A program made the position numbers and the translations under genes. A stretch of DNA of 64,000 nt from Escherichia coli. GTDB taxonomy: Bacteria; Pseudomonadota; Gammaproteobacteria; Enterobacterales; Enterobacteriaceae. Below are positions 2-49,004 of the stretch, piece after piece (the first letter of the stretch is position 1; each line of letters opens with the position of its first letter). The notes under the pieces were generated by a model. The model had not been told where the DNA came from and did not search any database. It saw only the letters and a program-made list of their open reading frames with translations. The DNA is taken from assembly GCF_013315695.1 (NCBI RefSeq), contig NZ_CP054353.1; one strand, 5' to 3'.

Positions 2-2362
2 GAGAAAGGCAGCGCTACGGGGATACAGCAGAGTAGCCAGGGCGCGTTGGTGGCAACCACCAGGGCGACGCGGGTCACAGGGACACGCGCTGATGGCGTC
101 GCGTTCAGCATCGAGCAGGATGCGGCGAACAATATCCTGCTGGCAAATGGCGGCGTGTTAACCGTGGAGTCAGACACCACTTCCGCCAAAACACAGGTCA
201 ATGCGGGCGGACGGGAGATCGTCAAAACAAAAGCCACTGCGACTGGCACGATGCTTACCGGCGGTGAACAAATCGTCGAGGGTGTGGCGAATGAGACAAC
301 GATTAACGACGGCGGAATACAAACAGTTTCGGCTAACGGTGAGGCAGTAAAAAAAACGATTAATGAAGGCGGTACGCTGACAGTCAACGATAATGGCAAA
401 GCGACAGATATCATCCAGAACAGCGGTGCCGCTCTCCAGACGAGCACGGCTAACGGTATTGAAATCAGCGGTACTCACCAGTACGGCACCTTTTCCATTG
501 CCGGCAATTTAGCGACCAATATGTTGCTGGAAAATGGCGGTAATTTATTGGTATTAGCAGGTACCGAAGCCCGTGACTCCAAGGTTGGCAAGGGTGGTGC
601 AATGCAAAACCTGGGTCAGGACTCCGCCACAAAGGTTAACTCTGGCGGGCAATATACCCTTGGGCGGTCAAAAGATGAGTTTCAGGCTCTGGCCCGGGCA
701 GAAGATCTCCAGGTCGCTGGCGGGACGGCAATCGTCTATGCAGGTACGCTGGCGGATGCATCGGTCAGTGGCGCGACAGGAAGCCTGTCGTTAATGACGC
801 CACGGGATAATGTTACGCCAGTTAAACTCGAAGGGGCGATCCGGATTACCGATAGCGCGACATTAACTATCGGAAATGGCGTCGATACGACGCTTACCGA
901 CCTGACGGCTGCCAGCCGGGGCAGTGTCTGGCTTAACAGCAATAATTCCTGTGCAGGTACCAGCAACTGCGAATATAGAGTAAACAGTTTGCTCCTCAAC
1001 GACGGTGATGTTTATTTATCAGCACAAACAGCAGCGCCTGCCACAACTAACGGTATCTACAATACGCTGACAACCAGTGAACTTTCCGGCAGCGGTAATT
1101 TCTACCTGCATACCAACGTTGCAGGCTCCCGGGGCGATCAACTGGTCGTCAACAACAACGCCACTGGTAATTTTAAAATCTTTGTTCAGGATACCGGCGT
1201 CAGCCCTCAGTCTGACGACGCGATGACGCTGGTGAAAACAGGGGGAGGGGATGCTTCGTTTACGCTGGGTAATACCGGCGGTTTCGTTGATCTTGGGACC
1301 TATGAGTATGTCCTGAAAAGCGACGGCAACAGCAACTGGAACCTGACCAATGATGTCAAACCCAACCCGGACCCCAACCCAAATCCGAAGCCGGATCCGA
1401 AACCAGACCCGACTCCCGATCCAACGCCGACACCCGTCCCGGAGAAACGCATCACGCCTTCTACGGCAGCCGTACTCAATATGGCAGCAACATTACCGTT
1501 GGTCTTTGATGCTGAGCTAAACAGTATTCGCGAGCGGTTGAACATAATGAAAGCGAGTCCACACAACAATAATGTCTGGGGGACGACGTATAACACCCGT
1601 AATAATGTCACCACCGATGCGGGTGCCGGGTTTGAGCAGACGCTGACCGGAATGACGGTGGGGATCGATAGCCGTAATGATATTCCTGAGGGGATTGCGA
1701 CTCTGGGCGCTTTTATGGGTTATTCCCATTCACATATCGGTTTTGATCGTGGAGGACATGGCAGTGTGGGCAGTTATTCTCTGGGGGGCTATGCCAGCTG
1801 GGAACATGAAAGTGGTTTCTATCTGGACGGTATCGTGAAGCTGAACCGCTTTGAAAGTAACGTAGCCGGTAAAATGAGCAGCGGTGGAGCCGCCAACGGC
1901 AGTTATCGCAGCAACGGGCTGGGCGGTCACATTGAAACCGGGATGCGATTTACCGATGGTAACTGGAACCTGACGCCGTATGCATCGTTAACGGGGTTCA
2001 CCGCTGATAACCCCGAATATCATTTATCCAATGGCATGGAATCGAAATCAGTCGATACCCGCAGTATATATCGTGAACTGGGCGCAACGCTGAGTTACAA
2101 CATGCGTCTGGGGAACGGCATGGAAGTTGAGCCGTGGCTGAAGGCGGCTGTGCGCAAAGAATTTGTCGATGATAACCGGGTGAAAGTGAATAATGACGGT
2201 AATTTTGTCAATGATTTGTCGGGCAGACGTGGAATATACCAGGCAGGTATTAAAGCCTCATTCAGCAGTTCGTTAAGCGGGAATCTCGGGGTGGGGTATA
2301 GCCATGGTGCCGGTGTGGAATCCCCGTGGAACGCAGTGGCTGGTGTGAACTGGTCGTTCTGA
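2..2362 (+). CDS. Autotransporter adhesin, C-terminal portion (passenger repeats, Pro/Asp/Asn-rich linker, beta-barrel translocator); 5' end lies outside the window
   Basis: Frame is open from the window edge (no stop between 2 and 47); PNPDPNPNPKPDPKPDPTPDPTPTP linker; C-terminal beta-domain ending ...VNWSF as in type Va autotransporters; position resembles ypjA next to CP4-57 in E. coli K-12. Confidence 0.8.
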   Translation, partial: EKGSATGIQQSSQGALVATTRATRVTGTRADGVAFSIEQDAANNILLANGGVLTVESDTTSAKTQVNAGGREIVKTKATATGTMLTGGEQIVEGVANETTINDGGIQTVSANGEAVKKTINEGGTLTVNDNGKATDIIQNSGAALQTSTANGIEISGTHQYGTFSIAGNLATNMLLENGGNLLVLAGTEARDSKVGKGGAMQNLGQDSATKVNSGGQYTLGRSKDEFQALARAEDLQVAGGTAIVYAGTLADASVSGATGSLSLMTPRDNVTPVKLEGAIRITDSATLTIGNGVDTTLTDLTAASRGSVWLNSNNSCAGTSNCEYRVNSLLLNDGDVYLSAQTAAPATTNGIYNTLTTSELSGSGNFYLHTNVAGSRGDQLVVNNNATGNFKIFVQDTGVSPQSDDAMTLVKTGGGDASFTLGNTGGFVDLGTYEYVLKSDGNSNWNLTNDVKPNPDPNPNPKPDPKPDPTPDPTPTPVPEKRITPSTAAVLNMAATLPLVFDAELNSIRERLNIMKASPHNNNVWGTTYNTRNNVTTDAGAGFEQTLTGMTVGIDSRNDIPEGIATLGAFMGYSHSHIGFDRGGHGSVGSYSLGGYASWEHESGFYLDGIVKLNRFESNVAGKMSSGGAANGSYRSNGLGGHIETGMRFTDGNWNLTPYASLTGFTADNPEYHLSNGMESKSVDTRSIYRELGATLSYNMRLGNGMEVEPWLKAAVRKEFVDDNRVKVNNDGNFVNDLSGRRGIYQAGIKASFSSSLSGNLGVGYSHGAGVESPWNAVAGVNWSF

Positions 2363-3033: not shown

Positions 3034-5367
3034 TCAGGTTGTTGCAGGGTCGTCACATTTTGGCAGCCAGTCGCCGTAGCTTTCCTCTTTCAGCGTCAGG
3101 TTGGTCTGTATCCCCTGTTTGGTATGGCGCTTCTCGTAATTCAGTCCGTATTCCTTCAGCATCACCGGCAGCCCCAGCCCGAACATTTTCAGACTGAGTA
3201 CATTCCGGTAGCCGTTTGCCTCCATGTAGGCCAGATAGGCGTGATAGAGGTATTTACGGTAATTACGCGGGATGATACTGGCGTTCCCCATATACATGCC
3301 GCTGGTCTGCAGCAGGGTTTCCAGATAGCCGATAAAATCAAACGTCGGGTCGGCATCCCGTTTGATGTTCAGTGCCTCGTCTGAGTTCTGCTGGGACTGA
3401 AGCAGTGACCGGGCGAGCATCGGGTCGCTGAACTTCTGCATCAGGTGACGCACGATGACCGCCAGCTCGCGGGTGATTTTGTCCTTAAGCTGCGGGTCGC
3501 GCTCCTGCGGGGCTATCTGTTCCGGGAAGTGAATAATCACCCGCCGGCGTGACACGCCGCCGCTGCGGTCGGTGAAGCGCATCGGGTTATTGTTCACGGC
3601 CAGAATCACCGCCGGGATGTGCGTGGAGTACGCATCCCGGTATTTCGGGTCAACGGACACTGCATCGCCGCCGGTGATGGCCTTGAGTCCGGCTCCGTCG
3701 CCGCTCCATTTTTCCTGGTCCGGCAGGCGTATCAGTGAGAAGCCAGTTAACGCGGCACGTTCACGCGGGGATTCCAGCGTCTCGATGGTGGCCGACGTGG
3801 CGTTATCCTCACCGGCCAGCAGGGTGGCGATTTCGGCCATGATACTTTTGCCGCTGCCGCCGGGACCGGTCACCTCCAGAAAGAGCTGCCAGTCGTAGCG
3901 GTTTGCCAGCACCATAAACAGTGCGGCCAGAATCACGTCGCGTTTTTCCGCACGGCCACCGGCGGCACGGTCAAGCCAGCGCCAGAACGCGGGGGCGTGG
4001 GTCTCCAGCGTTTCACCGTCCACCGGCGGGGTGAAATCCACATCGCACAGGGTGCGCATCCAGTGTGACGGACTGTGCGGATGGAACGTGCCGTTCTGCG
4101 TGTCGAGCACGCCGTTACGAAAGCCAATCAGGCGGCGGGAGGGGGCTTCCTGCTGCGGAATAATCAGTTTCAGGGTGTCCACCACGGAGGCCACCTTCCC
4201 GGAGGAGAACGGCGCGCGCAGACGCTGAAACAGCCCGGCCACATCCCGGGCAAAGTCCTGTGGCGGCAGCACCTTCCAGACACCATTTTCATAGCGGGAC
4301 AGAAGCTGGCCGTTGGCATCGACCGCGAGCGCCTCGCCGTAATGCTCATAGATACGCATGGCCTTTTCGCTGGTACTCATGGCGGAAAACTCTGCTTCGC
4401 TCATGGTGTCGAACGGGCTTTCAGCCGGTGGCCGGATGGCATCGTAAATGGCCTTACGGGTGGCCTCCCCGCCGTACTGCGTGAAGGCATCATTCCAGTC
4501 ACCGAAGACCGGCGGCAGGGCAACAACGCCCTCACACGCATCTGCGGCTGCGGCGGCTTTTTTCTGGCCGTCACCGCTGAGGTCACGGTCTGCGGCAAGG
4601 ACAATCTGACAGGCCGGATGCTTCTGCCGGGCAAGGCTGGCCAGAGAAAGGAGGTTCACGGAAGAAAGCGCCACCATCACCGTTTCACCGGTCAGGTGAT
4701 GCACGGTAAGTGCGGTCGCGTATCCCTCCGCTATCCACAGACGTTTTCCGGCCTGATTCTGTCCTTCAAGGGTGTGACAGGTGCCCCTGACCTGTCCGCC
4801 TTTCAGGGTGCGCTTACGGCCGTCAGCACTGATTAACTGAAGGTTAACCAGTTCGCCGCTGTCGTCATACAGTGGCACCACAAGGTCACCGGCGCGCCAG
4901 CTCACGCCACCGGCTCTGTGTGTGCCGGTCAGCATCCGGCATTCCCGGCCGGGAAAGCCCTTGCGGGTCAGGTAGGCGTTACCGGTTCCGGGACGGGTTT
5001 TTGCCATCAGGGTTTGTGCCAGTGCGGCGGCGTTCTTCCGGGCAGCGTCTGTTTCAGCAACGGCGGCGGCCGTCACTGCCGGGTCAGCCGGGGGCAGGCT
5101 GCCGGTCACGGCAGCCACCTTTGCGGCCGCGTCGGACGGAGAGACACCAAACACCTTTCCAACCAGTTTCAGGCCGTCACCGGCACCACACTGATTGCAG
5201 TACCAGGTGCCGCGCCCCTCCCTGTCATCAAAACGGAAGCGGTCACTCCCGCCACAGACCGGACAGGGCTGATGACGGTTTTTCAGCACCTGAATCCCCA
5301 GCGCCGGGAGAATACGCGGCCAGTGGCCGAGCGCATGGCTGACGGTGGCGGTTACGTTCATTTTCAT
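3034..5367 (-). CDS. P4 alpha-type bifunctional primase/helicase (777 aa)
   Basis: N-terminal zinc-binding motif CPVCGG...YCNQCG, central primase region, C-terminal P-loop helicase (GPGGSGKS); size and position match P4 alpha. Confidence 0.9.
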   Translation of the reverse strand: MKMNVTATVSHALGHWPRILPALGIQVLKNRHQPCPVCGGSDRFRFDDREGRGTWYCNQCGAGDGLKLVGKVFGVSPSDAAAKVAAVTGSLPPADPAVTAAAVAETDAARKNAAALAQTLMAKTRPGTGNAYLTRKGFPGRECRMLTGTHRAGGVSWRAGDLVVPLYDDSGELVNLQLISADGRKRTLKGGQVRGTCHTLEGQNQAGKRLWIAEGYATALTVHHLTGETVMVALSSVNLLSLASLARQKHPACQIVLAADRDLSGDGQKKAAAAADACEGVVALPPVFGDWNDAFTQYGGEATRKAIYDAIRPPAESPFDTMSEAEFSAMSTSEKAMRIYEHYGEALAVDANGQLLSRYENGVWKVLPPQDFARDVAGLFQRLRAPFSSGKVASVVDTLKLIIPQQEAPSRRLIGFRNGVLDTQNGTFHPHSPSHWMRTLCDVDFTPPVDGETLETHAPAFWRWLDRAAGGRAEKRDVILAALFMVLANRYDWQLFLEVTGPGGSGKSIMAEIATLLAGEDNATSATIETLESPRERAALTGFSLIRLPDQEKWSGDGAGLKAITGGDAVSVDPKYRDAYSTHIPAVILAVNNNPMRFTDRSGGVSRRRVIIHFPEQIAPQERDPQLKDKITRELAVIVRHLMQKFSDPMLARSLLQSQQNSDEALNIKRDADPTFDFIGYLETLLQTSGMYMGNASIIPRNYRKYLYHAYLAYMEANGYRNVLSLKMFGLGLPVMLKEYGLNYEKRHTKQGIQTNLTLKEESYGDWLPKCDDPATT

Positions 5368-7811: not shown

Positions 7812-7980
7812 TAAAATATAAAAAAAACAAACAGTAAGCCGGTTTTTCCTGCGACCTTTTCCTGGCTTGCCGGTCGGAGGATGAGTCTCCTGTGTCAGGG
7901 CTGGCACATCTGCAATGCGTCGTGTTGTTGTCCGGTGTACGTCACAATTTTCTTAACCTGAAGTGACGAGGAACCGGAAA

Positions 7981-8715
7981 ATGTCTGACAACACCATCCC
8001 TGAATATCTGCAACCCGCGCTGGCACAACTGGAAAAGGCCAGAGCCGCCCATCTTGAGAACGCCCGCCTGATGGATGAGACCGTCACGGCCATTGAACGG
8101 GCAGAGCAGGAAAAAAATGCGCTGGCGCAGGCCGACGGAAACGACGCTGACGACTGGCGCACGGCCTTTCGTGCAGCCGGTGGTGTCCTGAGCGATGAGC
8201 TGAAACAGCGCCACATTGAGCGCGTGGCACGCCGGGAGCTGGTACAGGAATATGACAATCTGGCCGTGGTGCTGAATTTTGAACGCGAACGCCTGAAAGG
8301 GGCGTGTGACAGCACGGCCACCGCCTACCGGAAGGCACATCATCACCTTCTGAGTCTGTATGCAGAGCATGAGCTGGAACACGCCCTGAATGAAACCTGT
8401 GAGGCGCTTGTCCGGGCAATGCATCTGAGCATCCTGGTACAGGAAAATCCGCTCGCCAACACCACCGGCCATCAGGGCTACATCTCACCGGAAAAGGCTG
8501 TCATGCAGCAGGTGAAATCATCGCTGGAACAGAAAATAAAACAGATGCAAATCAGCCTCAGCGGTGAGCCGGTTCTCCGGCTGGCCGGACTGTCAGCGGC
8601 AACACTCCCGCACATGGATTATGAGGTGGCAGGCACACCGGCGCAGCGCAAGGTGTGGCAGGACAAAATAGACCAGCAGGGAGCAGAGCTGAAGGCCAGA
8701 GGACTGCTGTCATGA
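7981..8715 (+). CDS. sid: Sid-like capsid size-determination (external scaffold) protein, 244 aa
   Basis: Position first in the sid-delta-psu block; length equals P4 Sid; stop overlaps the delta start (ATGA). Confidence 0.6.
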   Translation: MSDNTIPEYLQPALAQLEKARAAHLENARLMDETVTAIERAEQEKNALAQADGNDADDWRTAFRAAGGVLSDELKQRHIERVARRELVQEYDNLAVVLNFERERLKGACDSTATAYRKAHHHLLSLYAEHELEHALNETCEALVRAMHLSILVQENPLANTTGHQGYISPEKAVMQQVKSSLEQKIKQMQISLSGEPVLRLAGLSAATLPHMDYEVAGTPAQRKVWQDKIDQQGAELKARGLLS

Positions 8716-9285: not shown

Positions 9286-9858
9286 ATGGAAAGCACAGCC
9301 TTACAGCAGGCCTTTGACACCTGTCAGAATAACAAAGCAGCATGGCTGCAACGCAAAAATGAGCTGGCTGCGGCCGAACAGGAATATCTGCGGCTTCTGT
9401 CAGGAGAAGGCAGAAACGTCAGTCGCCTGGACGAATTACGCAATATTATCGAAGTCAGAAAATGGCAGGTGAATCAGGCCGCCGGTCGTTATATTCGTTC
9501 GCATGAAGCCGTTCAGCACATCAGCATCCGCGACCGGCTGAATGATTTTATGCTGCAGCACGGCACAGCACTGGCGGCCGCACTGGCACCGGAGCTGATG
9601 GGCTACAGTGAGCTGACGGCCATTGCCCGAAACTGTGCCATACAGCGTGCCACAGATGCCCTGCGTGAAGCCCTCCTGTCCTGGCTTGCGAAGGGTGAAA
9701 AAATTAATTATTCCGCACAGGATAGCGACATTTTAACGACCATCGGATTCAGGCCTGACGCGGCTTCGGTGGATGACAGCCGTGAAAAATTCACCCCTGC
9801 GCAGAACATGATTTTTTCGCGTAAAAGTGCGCAACTGGCATCACGTCAGTCTGTGTAA
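9286..9858 (+). CDS. psu: Psu-like polarity-suppression / capsid decoration protein, 190 aa
   Basis: Position after delta and length equal to P4 Psu. Confidence 0.65.
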   Translation: MESTALQQAFDTCQNNKAAWLQRKNELAAAEQEYLRLLSGEGRNVSRLDELRNIIEVRKWQVNQAAGRYIRSHEAVQHISIRDRLNDFMLQHGTALAAALAPELMGYSELTAIARNCAIQRATDALREALLSWLAKGEKINYSAQDSDILTTIGFRPDAASVDDSREKFTPAQNMIFSRKSAQLASRQSV

Positions 9859-10021
9859 AACTCCCCGAAAATCCGCCCGTTTTACTGAAAAAAGCCATGC
9901 ATCGATAAGGTGCATGGCTTTGCATGCGTTTTCCTGCCTCATTTTCTGTAAACCGTGCCATTCCCGGCGCGGTCTGAGCGTGTCAGTACAACTGCATTAA
10001 AACCGCCCCGCAAAGCGGGCG

Positions 10022-10040
10022 GGCGAGGCGGGGAAAGCAC
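10022..10040. other. cos site (cohesive end) of the P4-like element
   Basis: ggcgaggcggggaaagcac matches the P2/P4-family cohesive-end sequence as I recall it; located after psu as in P4. Confidence 0.6.
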
Positions 10041-10074
10041 TGCGCGCAGTATAAGAATTAAATAGGTATGGATT

Positions 10075-12033
10075 TTAAAATCCATCAAGTAGCTGATTGA
10101 TACCATTGCTCTCATCACAATTTATTTGCTCTAACTCAAATAAAGCACTGTCGTACTTTATTTGGGGAGTGTTTTCAAATGACAATAAAGATTCGATTAG
10201 TCTTATTTCTTTATCTTTATTTATGTCTTTAAGTGAGTCTAAAGTTAAATTGAATTTAACTTCGGGTTGTTTTCCTACTTCCATCATGATATTTGACTCC
10301 AACTCTGGATCAGTATTGAAGAATCGATGTGTCTTATGGAAATAACTAGGTTTTCTTGATTTTAAAATACTTAGTATATCCGACTTGATAGTGCTTTCCC
10401 GTGCTATCACAAGCCAATGGTTGGCAACCCCTGTGATGGTGGTAATGATGTGGGAGCCATTTTCACTTAGTTCATTAAAGGCTCTTAAGTCACCCTTGAA
10501 AAAATCATTTAGCAACTCATTTTCTTTATCTTTATCAAAAAGGTAAATTATTGAATTGCCGGCTAATGATATTTCAGCCTTGGTTTTTATAGTATCGCAA
10601 TTAAATTGCGCGGTCTCATTTTTTAATTCTTCGTAAGATGATTTTAAGTCTAAAAGCAAGCATTTTATTATACTTGATCTGAAAGATGAGTAATCAATAT
10701 CAGCACAAAGTGAAAATAAATTTCTGTGACGAATGGATTCAGGGCTGTAATATAGCTTTGTTAATATTTCTTTTTGGCGTTCTTTTGTGTCACGACAGAT
10801 AAACATAGCTGCAAAATATTCCATTAATGATTTGTGTGACCAACGAATAATAGCGCCTTCTTTGACAAATAATGGAACGGTTTCAATTAAGTCCTGAATA
10901 AAAAGAGATGGTGAAGTTGATATTCCGGGAATTTTTGAAATGATATTTTGCAATGTTATTTGCAGATCGTCTTTCGTAAACTCAATTTTACCTCCGTCTT
11001 TCAAACACCAAAAACCTAATCTCCTTAAGACCTGATGGAAGTCAGTGGAGTCTAGCTTAGAAAATTTTTCTCTAACATAACCAAGTTCTTTAGTTAAATC
11101 ATGAGACTCATACAAAGCGTCAAATACTTGGCTATAAAATAACTCTCTTTTTCTTGGTATTATCGGTTTGAATTTATATGCACAAAATAATAATGAAACA
11201 TAAAGAGGTGTGGATAAAAATTCATTTAGATTATGACCATTCTCCAGTCGTAATCCTTTAATTAATTGAGATGAAATAGGGCCACGTCCATCATATCGAC
11301 GTAATAGATCATACGCTTGATTCGTTTCTAATGGGTTGATTTTAAATCTTGAGAAACCATGTAGTTCTGATAAGAAATTATCATGACGAGAAGTTATAAT
11401 TATTTTGCTTTCTGAGAAATTATTAGCAAAGGTACTTAGTAAATTTACGATCTTGGATTTGAGTTGTTGTGGGATTTCATCTATGCCATCGAAAAGATAA
11501 ATAAAAGGGATTTTTTTGAGGCAGTTGTCTGAAATGTCTTCTCCTAAACCAAGTTGATGTTTCACCTGTAGCGCAAAATCATAATCTTTAGCACGTCGTA
11601 ATTCAATGTATATTGGAATGTATTCCTTATTAGCGATGCAATCTAAAGCAATTCTTTTCATTAGGGTGGACTTACCCATTCCTGCTGAGTCAGTGATTAA
11701 TATATGATTGAAATTATCTAATAAATCTGCATTGTCTTTTATTAGGCATGTGTATGGTTTTTTTTCATTATCGTAATAAATGCTCATTGGCTCATAAATA
11801 TCTAGAAGCTCTACTGGAGTATTTTGAAAAGCTAAGGTATTCACAAGGGAGCATTGCCCTTTCACATTTGATAGGAAACGTTCAAGATTTTTATTCAAGA
11901 AGCGTGCTGCATGTACATCTATTAAATAATTACGAACACTACTTTCTATGATAGGTAATATTTTATTCTTAATAACCTCCTTTGCCCATGGAAGGGATGC
12001 AGAGACTAATACATCAAGAGATACTGGTTGCAT
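10075..12033 (-). CDS. NACHT-type STAND NTPase (652 aa), candidate anti-phage protein in the P4 cargo slot
   Basis: Walker A GMGKST and NACHT-type Walker B LFDGIDE; long C-terminal helical region; strongly AT-rich versus flanks; sits between cos/psu and int. Confidence 0.75.
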   Translation of the reverse strand: MQPVSLDVLVSASLPWAKEVIKNKILPIIESSVRNYLIDVHAARFLNKNLERFLSNVKGQCSLVNTLAFQNTPVELLDIYEPMSIYYDNEKKPYTCLIKDNADLLDNFNHILITDSAGMGKSTLMKRIALDCIANKEYIPIYIELRRAKDYDFALQVKHQLGLGEDISDNCLKKIPFIYLFDGIDEIPQQLKSKIVNLLSTFANNFSESKIIITSRHDNFLSELHGFSRFKINPLETNQAYDLLRRYDGRGPISSQLIKGLRLENGHNLNEFLSTPLYVSLLFCAYKFKPIIPRKRELFYSQVFDALYESHDLTKELGYVREKFSKLDSTDFHQVLRRLGFWCLKDGGKIEFTKDDLQITLQNIISKIPGISTSPSLFIQDLIETVPLFVKEGAIIRWSHKSLMEYFAAMFICRDTKERQKEILTKLYYSPESIRHRNLFSLCADIDYSSFRSSIIKCLLLDLKSSYEELKNETAQFNCDTIKTKAEISLAGNSIIYLFDKDKENELLNDFFKGDLRAFNELSENGSHIITTITGVANHWLVIARESTIKSDILSILKSRKPSYFHKTHRFFNTDPELESNIMMEVGKQPEVKFNLTLDSLKDINKDKEIRLIESLLSFENTPQIKYDSALFELEQINCDESNGINQLLDGF

Positions 12034-12036
12034 GAA

Positions 12037-13245
12037 TTATACCTTATTTTCTACGTTTAAATTTTTGACCTTAAGTCCCCACCAGTTCATTAAATCGATT
12101 CTGGTATGTAAATATGTTGAGCGGTTATATGCTCTTCTAACTTCGTTTTTGTCAGAGTGCGCTAAAGCAGCTTCAATGACATCTGGGTTAAAACCTCTTT
12201 CATTCATGGCTGTACTTGCTATTGAACGTAGACCATGAGCAACCAGCTTCCCGCCATAACCAATACGTTTTAAAGCAGCATTAGCAGTTTGGCTATTCAT
12301 TGGCTGTTTTGGGTCATTTCTACTGGGAAAAACATGTTCACGATGAGCACTGATTGGTTTCATTACCTCCAGAATCTCTATTGCCTGAGGTGATAAAGGA
12401 ACAATGTGTTCCCGCTTAGCTTTCATCCGTTCGGCTGGAATAGTCCAGAGCTTTGCGTCAAGATCGATCTCTGCCCAACGAGCACCGGAAGCTTCAGAAG
12501 GGCGCACAAGGGTCAGAAGCTGCCACTCAATTAGACAGCGAGTCGAAACAGAGAGGTTCGACATCACCAAAGAGCGCATGAGTTTTGGTAATTCTTCAGG
12601 TCGTAGCGTTGGCATGTGTTGCTTTTTGGGTTTCTCAAATGCCATACCAATACCAGATGCCGGGTTTGCATCAATCAGGCCAGTGTTGACGGCGTAGATC
12701 ATGATTTCGTTAATACGCTGCACCAGTCGACGTACAGTCTCTAGCGCCCCACGTGCTTTGATTGGCTCAAGGGTTTCAACTAGTGTTCGGGCTTTGATTT
12801 GCTGGACAGGGATCTCCCCGATGACAGGGAATACGTCTTTTTCCAGTGACCGCCATATATCTTTAGCGTAATCGGGTGTAACGCTTTTGCTTTTGAGCTG
12901 GAACCAGTTAGCGGCGACCGTTGAAAAAATACTGTCCAGAGCGATTTGCTGCTGTTCCTCTGCAACTTCGGCCTGAATTTGCGGGTCAATTCCGTTGGCT
13001 AACAAAGCAAGGTAATCCGCTCTTAACCGTCGAGCATCAGCAAGTGAAAGGGCGGGGAAAGCACCAAGCCCCATCATTGTCCGCTGTTTTGTTGCTGGAC
13101 GTTGATAACGGAAACGCCACAACTTCTTACCGTTCGTTTTAACGAGCAGAAAAAGACCATCGCCATCATGTAACGTTAGATCCTTTTCTAACGCTCTAGC
13201 GCGCAGAACTTCTGTGCTGGTCAGGGGGCGTGTCGTTCTTGCCAC
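12037..13245 (-). CDS. int: P4-type tyrosine integrase (402 aa)
   Basis: P4 integrase-like N-terminus (...GLFLLV...G.K.WRFRY) and C-terminal catalytic region (...HGLR...RAYNRS); adjacent to ssrA-derived att core. Confidence 0.9.
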   Translation of the reverse strand: MARTTRPLTSTEVLRARALEKDLTLHDGDGLFLLVKTNGKKLWRFRYQRPATKQRTMMGLGAFPALSLADARRLRADYLALLANGIDPQIQAEVAEEQQQIALDSIFSTVAANWFQLKSKSVTPDYAKDIWRSLEKDVFPVIGEIPVQQIKARTLVETLEPIKARGALETVRRLVQRINEIMIYAVNTGLIDANPASGIGMAFEKPKKQHMPTLRPEELPKLMRSLVMSNLSVSTRCLIEWQLLTLVRPSEASGARWAEIDLDAKLWTIPAERMKAKREHIVPLSPQAIEILEVMKPISAHREHVFPSRNDPKQPMNSQTANAALKRIGYGGKLVAHGLRSIASTAMNERGFNPDVIEAALAHSDKNEVRRAYNRSTYLHTRIDLMNWWGLKVKNLNVENKV

Positions 13246-13429: not shown

Positions 13430-13474
13430 TGGTGGAGCTGGCGGGAGTTGAACCCGCGTCCGAAATTCCTACAT
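13430..13474. repeat. Internal att core: 45-bp copy of the ssrA 3' end (junction between P4-like element and P2-like prophage)
   Basis: tggtggagctggcgggagttgaacccgcgtccgaaattcctacat is identical to 48642-48686. Confidence 0.9.
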
Positions 13475-13589: not shown

Positions 13590-14240
13590 TTATCCGCTGC
13601 TTGAGTTGAAATCTGTGGGTTTACGGAGATTAGATCTTATGGTTTTTTCAGCGATACGAATAGTCGAAAATTTATGCAGGTTCATCAGTGCTATACAAAT
13701 CCCAAGTGCAAAAAAGTAGCTGGACATTCCTAATCTTTGCATATCAGTAAGTTTATTAATTTTCTCTAAAATATGTTGGGTTACTAATCCTTCGTATACA
13801 AAAGGTATGGAAGTTATAAAACCGCCAATAAAATAGAATGTTAAGCTTATCAGCTTTATAGATTTTCTATATATCCAAAAGCGATATCTTTTTTTTGTCC
13901 ATTTAAATATTTGTTTTTCACTACTAATAGAAATTAGTTTTTGACACTTGCTATAGTTATCAATGTCATTAACTGGATCGTTAACACCTAAAAGAATCTC
14001 TCTCTGTTCTGGAGTTAGGTTCTTATCTTTTGTTATTGCAGCAATACCATAATTATATGCAACTTTCTTGATTTTGGGATCTTCAGTATTCTTATATAGA
14101 TTGTATGCAAACTCGCTAATGTTTTTGCGCGAGTTGAAAATCTTATCTTTGGGGAAAACCCAGCCGGATCTTACCGCGAGCATCTGTATGATCGGGGTAA
14201 TTATCGCGACAGAATACTTAATTATCTCGTTTATGTTCAT
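13590..14240 (-). CDS. Hypothetical membrane protein (216 aa), cargo gene between attL and int
   Basis: AT-rich; soluble N-terminal ~125 aa followed by two hydrophobic helices; 14 bp downstream of int in the same orientation. Confidence 0.6.
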   Translation of the reverse strand: MNINEIIKYSVAIITPIIQMLAVRSGWVFPKDKIFNSRKNISEFAYNLYKNTEDPKIKKVAYNYGIAAITKDKNLTPEQREILLGVNDPVNDIDNYSKCQKLISISSEKQIFKWTKKRYRFWIYRKSIKLISLTFYFIGGFITSIPFVYEGLVTQHILEKINKLTDMQRLGMSSYFFALGICIALMNLHKFSTIRIAEKTIRSNLRKPTDFNSSSG

Positions 14241-14254
14241 GATCCATTGTTTAC

Positions 14255-15271
14255 TTAAATTAAGTTATAAAGAGGGTTTTTTGTTACTGCATCCTCCAGG
14301 TGGTCTGGAGAGAAGTGTGCATAAATCATCGTCATTTTAATATCTGAGTGCCCTAAAATATCACGTAAAACGAGTATGTTCCCACCGTTCATCATAAAAT
14401 GGCTGGCAAATGTATGGCGCAGGACGTGGGTGCATTGGCCTTCCGGTAGTTCAATACCGGCCCGTTTTACCGCCCGTTCAAAGGCTTTTCTGCATGGTGT
14501 GAATAATTTCCCTCGGTTTTTGGGTAGCTCGTTGTACAGATCCTGAGATATCGGTACGGTACGGTTTTTTTTACCCTTGGTCTTTGTATAGGTAATCCGG
14601 TATTTCGATAGTTGATGGCCCTGCAGGTTTTCAGCTTCACTCCAACGAGCACCGGTTGCTAGGCATATTTTTGCAATCATTAGCAGACTGGGGCTTTGAG
14701 AATCAGCACAGGCATCCAGCAGACGTTTAATTTCCTCCGGGGTTAGGAACGCCAGTTCACCCTCCGTAATTTTAAATGTTGGAAGCCCGGCAAGCGGGTT
14801 GGGGGCTGACCAGTGGCCCAGCTTTTTCAGTGTACCAAAAACAGATGATAGGTTGCGCTGTTCAAGGTTTACCGTGCGGGGCTTAACGGGTGACATGAAC
14901 GAGCCGTCTTCATTTTGGACCTCCCCCTTTAATCTGGCTTCCCGATATTTTGTGAAATCACCTGCTGTCAGCTCAGAGGCGATGGGATCGCCTAGACCAT
15001 TACAGATAATTCTAAGTTTCGCCATCAGGCGTTTGGGGTCTGCGAGTGTTTGACCATATAGGGAATACCACTGCTCAATCACTTCTGATAATCGCCGCCG
15101 ATCTTCCTTCTCACCAAGCCATGGCTTTTTGTTTACTTCGTTCATGGTGAAGTTTTCGAATGCTATGGCTTCGCCTTTCGTGGCAAATTGCTTACGCACG
15201 CGCTTGCCATTGCGTCCATTGGGATAGCACTCACACAACCATTTTCCGTTCGGCTGTTTTCTGATGGTCAT
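14255..15271 (-). CDS. int: P2-type tyrosine integrase (338 aa)
   Basis: Catalytic region motifs (...ARWSE...HVLRHTFASHF...LGHSDIKMTMIYAH); position next to att and repressor. Confidence 0.9.
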   Translation of the reverse strand: MTIRKQPNGKWLCECYPNGRNGKRVRKQFATKGEAIAFENFTMNEVNKKPWLGEKEDRRRLSEVIEQWYSLYGQTLADPKRLMAKLRIICNGLGDPIASELTAGDFTKYREARLKGEVQNEDGSFMSPVKPRTVNLEQRNLSSVFGTLKKLGHWSAPNPLAGLPTFKITEGELAFLTPEEIKRLLDACADSQSPSLLMIAKICLATGARWSEAENLQGHQLSKYRITYTKTKGKKNRTVPISQDLYNELPKNRGKLFTPCRKAFERAVKRAGIELPEGQCTHVLRHTFASHFMMNGGNILVLRDILGHSDIKMTMIYAHFSPDHLEDAVTKNPLYNLI

Positions 15272-15272
15272 A

Positions 15273-15905
15273 TCAAAGGCTCTTAATGATTTTCAGTGCA
15301 CGGCCTACTACCTCAATGTCATCCAGGCCACACTCAAACGATGAATCATCCTGATGCACTACTAATCTGTTTCCCGGGAGTCGAGTCAATTTAACAATGC
15401 TTTTTATCCCGTCGATATCGACTAACCACATACCATTCACTGGTGGTGTTTGGTTGCGATCTATTAAATAAGAATCACCAGAAGTAGTCACCAGCAGTAG
15501 GTTGCTTGAGTCTGAGGGGAGTATGCTGCTATCAATGATTGCTTTTCCAGCATCGACCAATAAACCACCGTTGAGAGTCGCCTTGTCAATTTCAGGAGAT
15601 ACTAGTTCAGAAAGAGGTACAACCTTGCTGGAGTTCACGGAATTGATATTTTTTTTAGGTTCAATGTTTGGACCTGGCTCCCCCTGTCCGGTGGTTAGCC
15701 ACAGTAAAGAAACTCCTGTTTCCAAGGCGCACTGAATCACCCACTCTGCAGGAAAACTATCTCTTAAGTATCTGTTTGCCATGGTGCTTTTTGATGCGCC
15801 TAAGTGATCGCAAAGTTGCTGTCTGGACTTGAAATCATAGGCTGCCATTAGTCTATGGATAGCTTCTCTTCCCCCTGTATTCTCTCCAGCCTTTACCTGT
15901 ATCAT
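15273..15905 (-). CDS. CI-type immunity repressor (210 aa, HTH N-terminus)
   Basis: Divergent from the apl/cox-like gene, adjacent to int; size closer to phage 186 CI than P2 C. Confidence 0.7.
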   Translation of the reverse strand: MIQVKAGENTGGREAIHRLMAAYDFKSRQQLCDHLGASKSTMANRYLRDSFPAEWVIQCALETGVSLLWLTTGQGEPGPNIEPKKNINSVNSSKVVPLSELVSPEIDKATLNGGLLVDAGKAIIDSSILPSDSSNLLLVTTSGDSYLIDRNQTPPVNGMWLVDIDGIKSIVKLTRLPGNRLVVHQDDSSFECGLDDIEVVGRALKIIKSL

Positions 15906-22519: not shown

Positions 22520-22735
22520 ATGTCAAGCATCGCCGCATTTAGCCTGGGTAACCCAGTTGAACGTCTGGCAAGGGTTCTTAAAGAGAACCAGGACAAACTC
22601 AATCTTAGTAAAGATGGTTTTGTGTCCGTAGACTTGTCTAACAAAAGAGCAATGGATGCCATCAAGGCACAGATGGATAAGCTTGAAGGCATCAAAACGA
22701 GCACTGTAAAAGAGAAAACTAATAGAACCAGATAA
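22520..22735 (+). CDS. Hypothetical small protein (71 aa), first gene of a two-gene cargo module
   Basis: Strong RBS (gggggag); stop overlaps the next start (ATAATGG). Confidence 0.5.
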   Translation: MSSIAAFSLGNPVERLARVLKENQDKLNLSKDGFVSVDLSNKRAMDAIKAQMDKLEGIKTSTVKEKTNRTR

Positions 22736-23577
22736 TGGCAACATTACTTTTAGCAGTGATTTTGGTTAGTGGTTTTATTTATGTAAACCTATCACTTTCA
22801 ACAAGATACCGATATAAGCGTTCCAACGGCTGGGACGCTTATTTTTTTGTGGCTGCCTGGGGTATCGTTTTTTTTCTCCTTGGCGGTTTTTTCACCTTTA
22901 TTTTGAACGTCAGCGGAGGGTTTCGTTGGCTGGCTAATGCCTTGAATCTAACACCTGACAGTTTTAACGGCATGTTGTCTTCATCGAAAGACAAACTTCA
23001 AAGAATAAATGAAATCAAACAGATAGCATGGGTTATGATTTCAATTGTCCTCGCTGCGATTTCAGGTTTTGGAAATAAGTTACGCACATCACGTGGAGAT
23101 CGTCGCTGGGATGCCTTAGCTAAAGCTGTGGGTAATAACGCTTTCGAATCATTACTCATGGAAGCGTCCGCAAGACAGTTTCCGATCATAGCAACTCTGT
23201 CGTCTCGCAAAATCTATGTTGGTCTTGTTACTTGTCCGGCGTTAGAAAACGGGCTTTCAGAACACCTTGAACTTCTCCCGATGTTAAGCGGATATAGGGA
23301 TAAAGATGATCTAACGATTAGTATCACGACTAACTATCACCAACATTATCTTGATAGTGGTGTGATAAGTGGAATGTCTCGGCTTAATATCGAAGATTTC
23401 CGTGTGCTCATACCAAAAGATGAGGTTGAAACAATTTCGTTTTTTGATACTGAGACATATAACAAATTTAAAGAAAATGAAGCCAGGGATAGAAAGAACT
23501 GTCGAAAGATTGGTAGTAAAAGTGCATCTTCGCGCAGCAAGCGTGCAGCAGATGCTGAGTCAAATGATCGTGCATGA
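22735..23577 (+). CDS. Hypothetical membrane protein (280 aa: ~3 N-terminal TM helices plus soluble C-terminal domain)
   Basis: Translationally coupled to the 71-aa ORF; hydrophobic N-terminus, charged C-terminus. Confidence 0.6.
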   Translation: MATLLLAVILVSGFIYVNLSLSTRYRYKRSNGWDAYFFVAAWGIVFFLLGGFFTFILNVSGGFRWLANALNLTPDSFNGMLSSSKDKLQRINEIKQIAWVMISIVLAAISGFGNKLRTSRGDRRWDALAKAVGNNAFESLLMEASARQFPIIATLSSRKIYVGLVTCPALENGLSEHLELLPMLSGYRDKDDLTISITTNYHQHYLDSGVISGMSRLNIEDFRVLIPKDEVETISFFDTETYNKFKENEARDRKNCRKIGSKSASSRSKRAADAESNDRA

Positions 23578-23694
23578 CTATGCTGCATGAGATCGCATGA
23601 TCGTTTGAGGATCGTTTTTGCTAAGGCCCGCCAGAACTGGCGGGCTTTTGCGTAGATCATGCACCTGCATGAAAACTACTACATAAAGCGGGCA

Positions 23695-23713
23695 GGCGTG
23701 GCGGGGATACGAG
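23695..23713. other. Putative cos site of the P2/186-like prophage
   Basis: ggcgtggcggggatacgag shares the GGCG(A/T)GGCGGGG core with the P4-like cos at 10022. Confidence 0.5.
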
Positions 23714-24320: not shown

Positions 24321-24923
24321 ATGAAAAAAAATACTCTTTATATTATTTCAATTGCATTGGCTGTTGTTGGGTTTCTTATGGCTCTTATTCCACGGCTCCC
24401 ATATTTATTTCAAGGAGTTAATGATGAGATTATCATCTCCGTTATTGGATTATCTTTTGCCTATTCTGGCCTGAGTTTGATTGTGTTAATGAAATTAAGG
24501 GAAAGAAGACTAAAGGCCGTTAAAAAAGGAAAGCAAATATTTCTAATGTATCCCGTACAAGAAAAAGATAAGGCCCGTCAAATAACTTGTAAGCTTAATG
24601 AGTTAGGTTTTGATGTATGGTTTGATGAAAATAACATATTGCCCGGGCAGATTATTGAAAAGCAAATTAATCAGGCTATAGACAATAGCGCTGCGGCTAT
24701 ATTGCTTCTGTCTAATGAAGATATGGAGTCATATATAAGAAAGGAGGTAGAGGGCTTTCTCCGTAAAGCTACGGTAAAAGATGAAAACTATGTTCCTATA
24801 ATTCCTGTGATAATTGGTGATGCTGAATTGCCTGCGATGCTCAAAAACATCAAGTCTGTAAACTATGAGGATGAAAAATTAATTGATAAGCTCAATTTGT
24901 CATTGAAGTCCATTCTTGGTTGA
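24321..24923 (+). CDS. Membrane-anchored TIR-like domain protein (200 aa: 2 TM helices plus TIR-like domain)
   Basis: C-terminal region follows the TIR pattern: KQIFLMY...LNELGFDVWFDENNILPGQII...INQAIDNSAAAILLLSNEDMESYIRKEV...YVPIIPVII. Confidence 0.6.
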   Translation: MKKNTLYIISIALAVVGFLMALIPRLPYLFQGVNDEIIISVIGLSFAYSGLSLIVLMKLRERRLKAVKKGKQIFLMYPVQEKDKARQITCKLNELGFDVWFDENNILPGQIIEKQINQAIDNSAAAILLLSNEDMESYIRKEVEGFLRKATVKDENYVPIIPVIIGDAELPAMLKNIKSVNYEDEKLIDKLNLSLKSILG

Positions 24924-24955: not shown

Positions 24956-25987
24956 TCAAGTAAGCTGATAACTATCGAATGTTACTATTTCCTCATCTAG
25001 CCATATGTTTATTTCCTGTAATCTTTTTTGCAACGGTAATAACTCATTACGAACAAATACTTTACTAGCCTTCTCCACATCCCCAAACCCCCCAACATTA
25101 TTCGGCATAATCCCCATCATCTGTGGCGGAACGCGATGTGCTGCCATCATGTCATCCCGGCTCACGTTCTTGATATTTAGAAACTCATCCTTCGCCGCAA
25201 CTTCTGACAAAGGGATGATCTGAAGGCCGTCCTTTTTGCCGTTAGGCGAGTACATAAACAGGTTGCGGAAGTTACCCGGACCTTTGGCACTTTTCATTGC
25301 ATTGCGGAGGTTGTTCACGTCCTCCTGGTTCTGCGCAGCATCGGTCATGTACATGATGAAGCCTGCATGACTACCGTTAATGTAATACTTGCGGCGGAAC
25401 AGCGTGGCGGACTCATTGAGCAGGGCGGACGGAATGGCAGAAAGATAGCCGGGCAGGCCGTAGATCTCCTGGTTAATGTCCGGTTCCATCAGATGAAAAA
25501 TGCTGCCTTTCGTGAACTGATATGGCTGCGTGGTCATACCGTATTGCACAAACCAGTAGGTATCCAGGTCTAACCCGCGTCGGGTGTATTTTGCCAGGGC
25601 AGGTTCAAGGGCGATAACTTCACCGAAGCGGTTCGTGCGTTTCTCCAGGTAGGCGTTACCAAATACCAGATAGTCCTGCACAAAACGCGAAAAAGCCTGC
25701 TGGCTGAGCAGCGGGTGAGGGATGTAGGTGCTGGTCAGAATGTTGCACTTTACTGCAATCGGGGAACTATGATGAACGGCAGCGCGGAAGGTGCGCGCCA
25801 GTCCGTCAAAGCTGACGGGCGGCTCATACCAGCGGTCCATCTGTACGCATTCCACATAATCCAGCAGTTCTCGGCGGTCCAGAACAGGAACGGGATCGCC
25901 GAAGCTGAATGCTTCGGCTGTAGTTTGACTTTTAAGCTGGATCTGTTTCGTCGCCGCAGCGCGGTTCTTCTTACTCTTTCCCATCAA
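24956..25987 (-). CDS. Portal protein (P2 Q-like), 343 aa
   Basis: Size, orientation and pairing with the terminase ATPase gene as in P2 Q-P. Confidence 0.9.
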   Translation of the reverse strand: MMGKSKKNRAAATKQIQLKSQTTAEAFSFGDPVPVLDRRELLDYVECVQMDRWYEPPVSFDGLARTFRAAVHHSSPIAVKCNILTSTYIPHPLLSQQAFSRFVQDYLVFGNAYLEKRTNRFGEVIALEPALAKYTRRGLDLDTYWFVQYGMTTQPYQFTKGSIFHLMEPDINQEIYGLPGYLSAIPSALLNESATLFRRKYYINGSHAGFIMYMTDAAQNQEDVNNLRNAMKSAKGPGNFRNLFMYSPNGKKDGLQIIPLSEVAAKDEFLNIKNVSRDDMMAAHRVPPQMMGIMPNNVGGFGDVEKASKVFVRNELLPLQKRLQEINIWLDEEIVTFDSYQLT

Positions 25988-48641: not shown

Positions 48642-48686
48642 TGGTGGAGCTGGCGGGAGTTGAACCCGCGTCCGAAATTCCTACAT
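48642..48686. repeat. attR core: 3' end of ssrA, identical to 13430-13474
   Basis: 45-bp exact direct repeat. Confidence 0.9.
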
Positions 48687-49004
48687 CCTCGGTACTACAT
48701 GCTTAGTCAGTCTTTACATTCGCTTGCCAGCTGCGGACGGACACGCCACTAACAAACTAGCCTGATTAAGTTTTAACGCTTCAACCCCAGGCAGGGCTTC
48801 CACGCGATCTCTTTTGGGTTTGACCTCTCTTGATCCCCGTCCTAAGAGCGGAGGCTAGGGAGAGAGGGCTCTAAGCAGGTTATTAAGCTGCTAAAGCGTA
48901 GTTTTCGTCGTTTGCGACTATTTTTTGCGGCTTTTTACGAGGCCAACCGCCCCTCGGCATGCACCTTGGGTTTCGCAAATCCCGTCGAATCCAGAATCAG
49001 CCCC
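48642..49004 (-). ncRNA. ssrA: tmRNA (SsrA RNA), 363 nt
   Basis: Reverse complement begins GGGGCTGATTCTGGATTCGACGGG and ends GGGTTCAACTCCCGCCAGCTCCACCA; tag ORF region (GCAAACGACGAAAACTACGCTTTAGCAGCTTAA) present. Confidence 0.97.

What the first reader, a model, noticed from the sequence alone, without database searches (positions are those of the whole stretch)
10075..12033. AT-rich NACHT/STAND NTPase occupying the P4-type defence hotspot between cos/psu and int
The 652-aa protein has Walker A GMGKST and the NACHT-type Walker B hhhhDGhDE (LFDGIDE), a ~100-aa N-terminal region of unknown function and a ~400-aa C-terminal helical region. Its base composition is far lower in GC than the flanking int and psu genes, and it sits exactly where P4-like satellites carry exchangeable anti-phage cargo. 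Bacterial NACHT and Avs-type STAND proteins are established antiviral sensors; the N-terminal region here does not obviously resemble a known nuclease or protease effector, so it may be an uncharacterised subtype.
Basis: partly seen in the sequence, partly recalled or inferred. Interest (0 to 1): 0.75.

Follow-up and report, generated by a model that had tools for sequence, protein, structure and literature searches.

The report
Known satellite-borne NACHT immune protein bNACHT22
This gene encodes bNACHT22, a bacterial relative of animal NLR immune sensors that was already catalogued as cargo of P4-like phage satellites and already tested, without a convincing anti-phage effect, so the finding is real but not new.

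Summary
A 652-aa ORF lies at 10075..12033 (-), at 33% GC. It sits between the P4-type cos site (10022..10040) with psu on one side and the satellite integrase on the other. It carries Walker A GMGKST and the NACHT Walker B LFDGIDE.

It is not uncharacterised. The protein is 652/652 identical to WP_001183326.1. That accession is bNACHT22 of Kibby et al. (clade 14, from E. coli ECOR36). Rousset et al. 2022 list it 24 times as P4-hotspot cargo. Kibby et al. tested it on ten phages and saw only an ambiguous drop in T3 titre. The relatives bNACHT24 and bNACHT04 also have no phage listed.

What I add:
- From residue 1 to about 449 it is homologous to the validated bNACHT02/11 family (hhalign E 1.7e-32). 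This includes an N-terminal MQPVS helix matching their MDPIT/MEPIS cell-killing motif.
- The C-terminal sensor domain is a different family (Pfam SNaCT5). It has no solved structural relative and is the fastest-evolving part of the protein.
- The gene is under strong purifying selection (dN/dS about 0.05-0.08).

Most likely it is an abortive-infection sensor whose trigger is unknown. Novelty: already known.

The parts
10075..12033 (-). bNACHT22 coding sequence (652 aa plus stop), 100% identical to WP_001183326.1
11899..12033 (-). N-terminal helices, aa 1-45, starting MQPVSLD; putative cell-killing effector element related to the MDPIT/MEPIS motif; P15, A17 and P27 are invariant in the family
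   Evidence: function inferred from bNACHT11
10699..11736 (-). NACHT module, aa 100-445 (P-loop NBD, helical domain, winged helix with conserved H400)
   Evidence: Pfam NACHT; Foldseek top hit NLRC4 4kxf, E 6e-13; hhalign to the bNACHT02/11 family
11665..11691 (-). Walker A DSAGMGKST (aa 115-123)
11476..11502 (-). Walker B IYLFDGIDE (aa 178-186), carrying the NACHT signature D[GAS]hDE
   Evidence: signature as defined
10120..10698 (-). SNaCT5 domain (aa 446-638), alpha/beta, putative sensor; the most variable region
   Evidence: Pfam PF22711, E 3.4e-7; entropy 2.64 bits against 1.1-1.6; pN 0.19-0.26 against 0.02-0.09; no solved relative
10078..10119 (-). Conserved C-terminal tail D-x-SNGI-x-x-LL-x-GF (aa 639-652), comparable to the ...DILGF tail of the bNACHT02/11 family
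   Evidence: a role in oligomerisation is inferred from bNACHT11 delta633-639
10022..10040 (+). P2/P4-type cos core GGCGAGGCGGGGAAAGCAC; left border of the variable cargo (conserved flank ends at about 10047-10053)
   Evidence: the identity of the 19-mer as cos is from my own knowledge
10003..10022 (-). GC-rich hairpin followed by T-run, terminator-like, downstream of the NACHT stop codon
   Evidence: consensus match only
12037..13245 (-). P4-like integrase. Its stop codon is 3 nt before the NACHT ATG, so a two-gene operon is likely. Its last 40-100 nt belong to the swapped cargo segment
   Evidence: Kibby Table S2 lists 2 genes in the operon
9286..9858 (+). psu (polarity suppression protein), the conserved flank of the hotspot

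Best explanation
The gene is bNACHT22, a single-gene clade-14 bacterial NLR-related protein. It is carried as the only cargo in the variable hotspot of a P4-like satellite integrated at ssrA, and it is probably co-transcribed with the satellite integrase. By homology with bNACHT11 it most likely works as an abortive-infection sensor, in four inferred steps. (1) The fast-evolving C-terminal SNaCT5 domain binds one or more phage proteins that are still unknown. (2) Binding releases NTP-dependent oligomerisation of the NACHT module into a ring, helped by the conserved C-terminal ...LLDGF tail. (3) Oligomerisation clusters the about 45-residue N-terminal helices that start with MQPVS, a variant of the MDPIT/MEPIS motif. 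(4) The clustered helices disturb the inner membrane or osmotic balance and kill or arrest the cell before phage release. What is shown here: the protein's identity, its domain make-up, its homology to the validated family from residue 1 to about 449, purifying selection, and its hotspot position. What is inferred: every functional step, including defence itself, which the one published test did not demonstrate.
For: Identity: 652/652 to WP_001183326.1, which is bNACHT22, clade 14. NACHT: Pfam E 6.5e-8; the AF2 model (pLDDT 85.5) matches NLRC4, NOD2 and NLRP3, best E 6e-13. Homology to validated defence proteins: BLASTP against bNACHT11 gives 27% identity over 366 aa, E 2e-28. hhalign of the two families gives probability 99.9, E 1.7e-32, columns 4-449 against 1-447, including the extreme N-terminus. 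In bNACHT11, D2A and P3A substitutions abolish defence, the sensor domain binds phage proteins, and a heptamer forms. The effector slot is modular: relatives with the same NACHT+SNaCT5 body carry Mrr_cat or DUF4062 at the N-terminus instead. Selection: the E. coli, Enterobacter and Citrobacter orthologues are all 652 codons without indels, with dN/dS 0.05-0.08; SNaCT5 has 3-10-fold higher pN than the NACHT core. All three sit between int and psu. Hotspot behaviour: 2,307 of 5,426 E. coli genomes match the flanks, but only 24 hold the gene. It is listed as P4-hotspot cargo in Rousset's Table S1.
Against: The published test of this exact protein, cloned with int under native sequence, showed no accepted defence against T2-T7, lambda-vir, M13, MS2 or Qbeta. 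There was only a T3 titre drop without smaller plaques. The near-identical bNACHT24 and the Klebsiella homologue bNACHT04 also have no phage listed. Position 2 is Q, where bNACHT11 has the acidic D that was mutated (with P3) in the defence-dead D2A;P3A variants. The SNaCT5 domain shows no detectable sequence similarity to the bNACHT02/11 sensor domain, so the binding mode cannot be transferred. PADLOC has no model that matches.
Confidence: 0.6

Rival explanations
1. The protein is functional, but its target is not a lytic phage of the classical panel. It may sense other mobile elements (competing satellites, temperate phages, plasmids) or a host perturbation, and so serve satellite competition rather than general host defence.
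For: There is no accepted defence on ten classical phages, yet the gene is under strong purifying selection and keeps its place in P4-like satellites of three genera. Rousset et al. found P4 cargo generally permissive to P2-like helpers and active in inter-viral competition. bNACHT25 senses a host chaperone rather than a phage protein directly.
Against: Homologues at 38-42% identity occur outside satellites, for example in a Pseudomonas chromosome, so the function is not tied to satellites. All characterised clade-14 members are anti-phage.
Confidence: 0.2
2. It is a narrow-range defence protein that acts weakly on T3-like podophages only.
For: Kibby et al. saw a decrease in T3 plaque-forming units.
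Against: Plaque size did not decrease, and the authors themselves discounted the result. No replicate or mutant control is reported.
Confidence: 0.1
3. It is an inactive or decaying passenger gene, or an addiction-type toxin that merely stabilises the satellite.
For: No accepted defence phenotype was seen. IS1 is inserted next to or just upstream of the gene in some strains.
Against: dN/dS is 0.05-0.08 with no indels across three genera. All catalytic motifs, the N-terminal P15/A17/P27 and the C-terminal tail are invariant or nearly so in 60 homologues. No partner antitoxin gene fits in the 2-kb cargo.
Confidence: 0.05

Closest known systems
[quoted passage not shown]
   Same: Identical sequence, 652/652, via the RefSeq accession. 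Same int-upstream context, since the cloned region begins in the P4-like int. bNACHT24 is near-identical over the shown ~400 aa, and bNACHT04 matches the 65%-identical cluster P0006.
   Different: Nothing differs in sequence. Here the satellite sits next to a P2/186-like prophage rather than directly beside ssrA.
bNACHT11 / bNACHT02 / bNACHT01 / bNACHT12 / bNACHT23 (validated clade-14 bNACHT proteins)
   Same: One-gene systems of about 610-650 aa. They are homologous from the first residue to the end of the winged-helix domain (hhalign E 1.7e-32). They share the N-terminal M-[DEQ]-P-[IV]-[TS] motif followed by a helix with a conserved AK, a short non-repeat C-terminal domain, and a conserved hydrophobic ...GF C-terminal tail.
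   Different: The sensor domain belongs to another family. This protein matches Pfam SNaCT5. The bNACHT02-like protein matches no Pfam SNaCT model, and the profiles stop aligning at about residue 449. Q replaces D at position 2. No phage target or activator is known.
Avs2 (AVAST type 2) and Bab/Bell, fungal HeLo/HELLP 'MEPIS' proteins
   Same: A similar extreme N-terminal motif, which in those proteins is tied to membrane-associated cell death.
   Different: The rest of the protein is unrelated. PADLOC Avs2 matches only the P-loop stretch, E 0.0021, residues 91-173. No amyloid motif or partner gene is present.
Animal NLRs (NLRC4, NOD2, NLRP3)
   Same: The NACHT fold (NBD, helical domain, winged helix): Foldseek E 6e-13 to 1e-9. 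The profile also hits NLRP14 and NLRC4 weakly.
   Different: No LRR sensor and no CARD or PYD effector; 13-18% sequence identity.
TIR-NLR and other STAND cargo of the P4 hotspot (Rousset et al. 2022)
   Same: The same locus between psu/cos and int, and a STAND NTPase core.
   Different: Those proteins carry TIR, SIR2 or nuclease effectors and TPR-type repeats, and TIR-NLR gave measurable defence. This one has a short helical N-terminus and an SNaCT5 domain.

Membership tests
NACHT clade of STAND NTPases | Walker A GxxxxGK[ST] | tested here: met
   AGMGKST, residues 117-123; G118, G120, K121 and T123 invariant in 60 homologues
NACHT clade of STAND NTPases | Walker B hhhhD[GAS]hDE, the feature that separates NACHT from other STAND NTPases (Kibby Fig. 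S1 legend) | tested here: met
   IYLFDGIDE, residues 178-186; D182, G183, D185 and E186 invariant
NACHT clade of STAND NTPases | Match to the NACHT profile and the NBD-HD-WHD fold | tested here: met
   Pfam PF05729, E 6.5e-8; Foldseek to NLRC4 4kxf, E 6e-13, TM 0.47 normalised to the query
NACHT clade of STAND NTPases | Conserved winged-helix histidine | tested here: met
   H400 in RWSHKS is nearly invariant and aligns with LHKS of the bNACHT02/11 family. Equivalence to the NLRC4 histidine is by alignment only.
NACHT clade of STAND NTPases | NTP binding and NTP-dependent oligomerisation | not testable with these tools
   Needs biochemistry
bNACHT clade 14 (bNACHT01-like, NACHT+SNaCT) | Placement in clade 14 of the authors' NACHT phylogeny | tested here: met
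   Kibby Table S1 lists WP_001183326.1 as clade 14, bNACHT22; the window protein is identical to that accession
bNACHT clade 14 (bNACHT01-like, NACHT+SNaCT) | Short C-terminal domain without repeats (SNaCT) that evolves faster than the NACHT module | tested here: met
   Pfam SNaCT5, E 3.4e-7; entropy 2.64 against 1.1-1.6 bits; higher pN. However, it is not alignable to the bNACHT02/11 SNaCT.
bNACHT clade 14 (bNACHT01-like, NACHT+SNaCT) | N-terminal MDPIT-like motif on a short extension | tested here: inconclusive
   MQPVS keeps P3, a hydrophobic residue at position 4 and S/T at position 5, and the N-termini align by hhalign. The acidic residue 2, mutated (with P3) in the defence-dead bNACHT11 variants, is Q here.
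bNACHT clade 14 (bNACHT01-like, NACHT+SNaCT) | Anti-phage activity that depends on the Walker A lysine | not testable with these tools
   The published test of this protein gave no accepted defence on ten phages, only an ambiguous T3 effect
P4-like satellite hotspot cargo (Rousset et al. 2022) | Lies between psu/cos and int of an element carrying the P4 core genes | tested here: met
   alpha primase, sid, psu and int confirmed by PHROGs, delta from ORF position and RefSeq annotation, cos
P4-like satellite hotspot cargo (Rousset et al. 2022) | Conserved flanks with variable content between genomes | tested here: met
   2,307 genomes match the flanks and 24 hold the gene; the borders are at about 10050 and about 12076-12140. 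Listed in Rousset's Table S1.
Avs / AVAST | Full-length match to an Avs family model | tested here: not met
   Only an 83-residue P-loop match to Avs2, E 0.0021

The most novel reading that the evidence does not exclude
The SNaCT5 branch of clade 14 may be a working immune sensor whose trigger class is absent from classical coliphage panels. Its sensor fold has no solved relative, and it recurs behind interchangeable effectors (MEPIS-like helix, Mrr nuclease, DUF4062). Identifying its ligand would add a new recognition module to bacterial NLR biology and would explain why three tested alleles looked inactive.
Probability: 0.35. Interest if true: 0.45.

Novelty: already known. Interest (0 to 1): 0.22.

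Why it matters
This is a correct call on a gene that two published studies had already catalogued, so it adds no new kind of system. Two points retain some value. First, bNACHT22 is a conserved, selected clade-14 NLR-like protein for which defence has not been shown. Second, the comparison here places the difference from the working relatives in the sensor domain (SNaCT5) and in residue 2 of the effector motif. That gives a concrete reason to retest it with verified expression, a wider phage set and a phage-gene activator screen.

Tried and rejected
- PADLOC and NCBIfam gave no family-level match, only P-loop-level hits to Avs2, mad8 and EruA.
- Sequence search of the PDB with the single protein found nothing. 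The family profile found only weak NLRP14 and NLRC4 hits. bNACHT11 (9ORF) was not found in either held PDB copy, so no direct structural comparison of the sensor domains was possible.
- BLASTP and hhalign found no similarity between SNaCT5 and the bNACHT02/11 sensor domain.
- A Pfam scan of a bNACHT02-like protein found no SNaCT family.
- The first exact-sequence look-up failed because I cut off the start codon. Identity was settled by comparison with the annotated RefSeq CDS instead.
- The published Cell version of Kibby et al. is not held, so the phenotype statements rest on the 2022 preprint.
- The Domainator paper and the 2026 P2/P4 hotspot paper do not mention NACHT cargo.
- 'NACHT' appears only in Rousset's hotspot list, the HHpred tables for other systems and a reference list, so I found no sign that they cloned this gene.
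- The promoter scan found no convincing promoter upstream of the gene within the int 3' end. I therefore rejected an independent transcription unit in favour of an int operon.

Full report
OBSERVATION

The window holds an ATG-initiated ORF at 10075..12033 on the minus strand, encoding 652 aa.
- Walker A (DSAGMGKST, residues 115-123) and Walker B (IYLFDGIDE, residues 178-186) are present. Their key residues are invariant in 60 homologues.
- GC is 0.31-0.34 over the gene, against about 0.5 in psu and 0.42-0.49 in int.
- The surrounding element is a P4-like satellite. PHROGs identifies the alpha primase (3034..5367), Sid (7963..8715), Psu (9286..9858, E 4.6e-100) and the integrase (12037..13245).
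- The 19-nt sequence GGCGAGGCGGGGAAAGCAC occurs once, at 10022..10040, 34 nt beyond the stop codon. That this is the P2/P4 cohesive-end sequence is my own knowledge.

IDENTITY

Megablast against 5,426 complete E. coli genomes finds the full gene in 24 genomes, always annotated 'NACHT domain-containing protein' and always between psu and int.
- In NZ_CP007394.1 the CDS carries accession WP_001183326.1, and its translation is 652/652 identical to the window protein.
- Kibby et al. (bioRxiv 10.1101/2022.07.19.500537) list WP_001183326.1 as bNACHT22. Table S1 gives clade 14 with the NACHT module at 100..477. Table S2 gives E. coli ECOR36 as the source, cloned with the upstream integrase as a predicted two-gene operon.
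- Rousset et al. 2022 (PMC9122126) list 'NACHT WP_001183326' 24 times in their table of P4-hotspot contents.
- Both the gene and its location were therefore already on record.

PUBLISHED PHENOTYPE

Kibby et al. challenged 27 bNACHT constructs with T2-T7, lambda-vir, M13, MS2 and Qbeta.
- The 'Phage Defense' column is empty for bNACHT22, for the near-identical bNACHT24 (ECOR35, cloned behind about 100 nt that look like the end of an IS1), and for the Klebsiella homologue bNACHT04.
- The Methods state that bNACHT22 reduced T3 plaque-forming units without reducing plaque size, so the authors did not count it.
- Caveats: I could read only the preprint, I found no statement that expression of these three constructs was verified, and an empty cell could also hide a growth problem.

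ANATOMY

Pfam gives three matches: NACHT (113-247, E 6.5e-8), nSTAND3, and SNaCT5 (PF22711, 446-638, E 3.4e-7, covering the full model length).
- An AlphaFold2 model built on 60 homologues is confident (pLDDT 85.5, pTM 0.79).
- The model shows three N-terminal helices (6-12, 14-32, 40-61), the NBD, helical and winged-helix domains up to about 445, and then an alpha/beta domain with four strands.
- Foldseek against the PDB returns NLRC4 (E 6e-13), NOD2 and NLRP3. These are the same kind of top hits reported for bNACHT11.

RELATION TO THE VALIDATED CLADE-14 PROTEINS

- BLASTP against the first 399 aa of bNACHT11 gives 27% identity over 366 aa, E 2e-28.
- BLASTP against a full bNACHT02-like protein from an E. 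coli plasmid gives 25% identity over 389 aa. Nothing aligns after residue 444.
- Profile-profile comparison of the bNACHT22 family (A1) with the bNACHT02/11 family (A3) gives probability 99.9 and E 1.7e-32. It aligns columns 4-449 with 1-447, so it runs from the extreme N-terminus to the end of the winged helix and stops where the sensor domains begin.
- The N-termini read MQPVSLDVLVSASLPWAKEVI (this protein), M(x)LETITLE.AI.L..P.AKKIF (wider family consensus) and MDPITNEILKIGIGETAKLIF (bNACHT11).
- P15, A17 and P27 are invariant in the bNACHT22 family.
- Both families end in a conserved hydrophobic tail finishing in GF.

WHAT THE RELATIVES DO

For bNACHT11, the 2024-2026 preprint (10.1101/2024.12.17.629029) reports the following.
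- The SNaCT domain binds several unrelated phage proteins by beta-augmentation.
- A heptameric wheel forms, and deleting the last seven residues stops puncta formation.
- The roughly 45-residue N-terminal extension with the MDPIT motif is needed for killing (D2A and P3A substitutions), which looks like plasmolysis.

Ibarlosa et al. (10.1101/2024.11.07.622273) link the same 'MEPIS' motif to Bell/HeLo membrane-targeting domains and to Avs2.

THE N-TERMINAL POSITION IS AN EFFECTOR SLOT

A profile of the SNaCT5 region, searched against 1.84 billion cluster representatives, finds 173 clusters.
- Nearly all have the domain at the C-terminus of proteins of about 650 aa.
- A few proteins of 810-898 aa keep the NACHT+SNaCT5 body but start with Mrr_cat (P0297, E 8.5e-4) or DUF4062 (P0379, E 3.4e-10).
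- In these proteins the segment equivalent to residues 46-99 of bNACHT22 is retained. The swappable part in bNACHT22 is therefore roughly residues 1-45, not 1-100.

THE SENSOR DOMAIN

SNaCT5 is the most variable region: mean column entropy is 2.64 bits, against 1.09-1.62 in the NACHT module.
- The bNACHT02-like protein matches no Pfam SNaCT family.
- The binding mode and the targets of bNACHT11 therefore cannot be transferred to this protein.

IS THE GENE ALIVE?

Orthologues in Enterobacter (84% identity) and Citrobacter (80% identity) sit in the same int-NACHT-psu arrangement.
- All three genes are 652 codons long, have no indels and are about 33% GC.
- Nei-Gojobori dN/dS is 0.05-0.08 overall, although dS is near saturation.
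- pN is 0.02-0.09 in the NACHT core and 0.19-0.26 in SNaCT5.
- This argues against a decaying passenger gene.

LOCUS STRUCTURE

Across E. coli genomes, similarity on the psu/cos side ends at window position about 10047-10053. It resumes inside the 3' end of int at about 12076-12140.
- The swapped unit is thus about 2.0-2.1 kb: this one gene plus the last 40-100 nt of int.
- The int stop codon (TAA, 12037-12039) is separated from the NACHT ATG by 3 nt.
- No promoter-like site lies upstream within int, and a terminator-like hairpin follows the gene at 10003-10022.
- An int-bNACHT22 operon is the simplest reading.
- More distant homologues (38-42% identity) occur as solitary genes in other contexts: in Proteus next to an Ogr/Delta remnant and an IS, and in a Pseudomonas chromosome.

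VERDICT

The finding is real and the annotation is right, but the gene is already known by name. The most likely function is an abortive-infection sensor of the bNACHT11 type with a different, uncharacterised sensor domain. The mechanism is inferred, and the only direct test so far was negative or ambiguous.

Noticed in passing
window 13430..13474 and 48642..48686; prophage about 13.4-48.6 kb; tmRNA 48642..49004 (-): A 45-nt exact direct repeat of the ssrA 3' end brackets a roughly 35-kb P2/186-like prophage (int 14255..15271, CI-like 15273..15905, portal 24956..25987, terminase 25984..27750). The prophage lies between the P4-like satellite and ssrA, so satellite and potential helper sit in tandem at one attachment site. 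In other strains the satellite int lies directly beside ssrA.
   Followed up: partly
window 23690..23712 versus 10022..10040: The neighbouring P2-like prophage has a cos-like site, GGCGTGGCGGGGATACGAG, that differs from the satellite's GGCGAGGCGGGGAAAGCAC at 5 of 19 positions. The adjacent prophage may therefore not be the cognate helper for packaging this satellite.
   Followed up: partly
window 24321..24923 (+), with 22735..23577 (+): A 200-aa TIR-domain protein (PADLOC SAVED_TIR 5e-11, ThsB-like 1.6e-4; phrog_24215; GC about 0.35) lies between the prophage's cos-like site and the portal gene. A 280-aa protein of unknown function (phrog_3630) precedes it. Only 2 of 5,426 E. coli genomes hold this arrangement. 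It is probably P2-hotspot defence cargo.
   Followed up: partly
window 13590..14240 (-): An AT-rich (GC about 0.32) 216-aa ORF with hydrophobic, possibly membrane-spanning stretches sits immediately downstream of the P2-like integrase and in the same direction. This mirrors the int-cargo layout of the satellite. PHROG phrog_21256, function unknown; no PADLOC hit.
   Followed up: partly
window 47270..48346 (-): An AT-rich (GC 0.36) 358-aa ORF with ParA/AAA-like similarity (phrog_164, E 5.9e-40) lies at the ssrA-proximal end of the P2-like prophage. No PADLOC hit.
   Followed up: no
NZ_OZ547117.1 (hits H1/H21); bNACHT24 clone from ECOR35: IS1 is inserted in the psu-NACHT-int region in one strain (H1/H21) and, by my reading of its upstream sequence, just upstream of the gene in the bNACHT24 clone from ECOR35. 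This could uncouple the gene from the int promoter and is relevant to the negative bNACHT24 assay.
   Followed up: no
L001 1565..9630 (NZ_CP007394.1): In strain ST2747 the satellite carrying the same NACHT gene has a tandem second set of P4-like replication and immunity genes (two primase copies, several frameshifted). This suggests recombination between two satellites at this site.
   Followed up: no
proteins P0295, P0297, P0373, P0378 (848-898 aa) and P0379 (810 aa): These are relatives with the same NACHT+SNaCT5 body but an N-terminal Mrr_cat nuclease (Pfam-confirmed for P0297) or a DUF4062 domain (P0379) in place of the short helical N-terminus. They are natural effector swaps within one sensor family.
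   Followed up: partly
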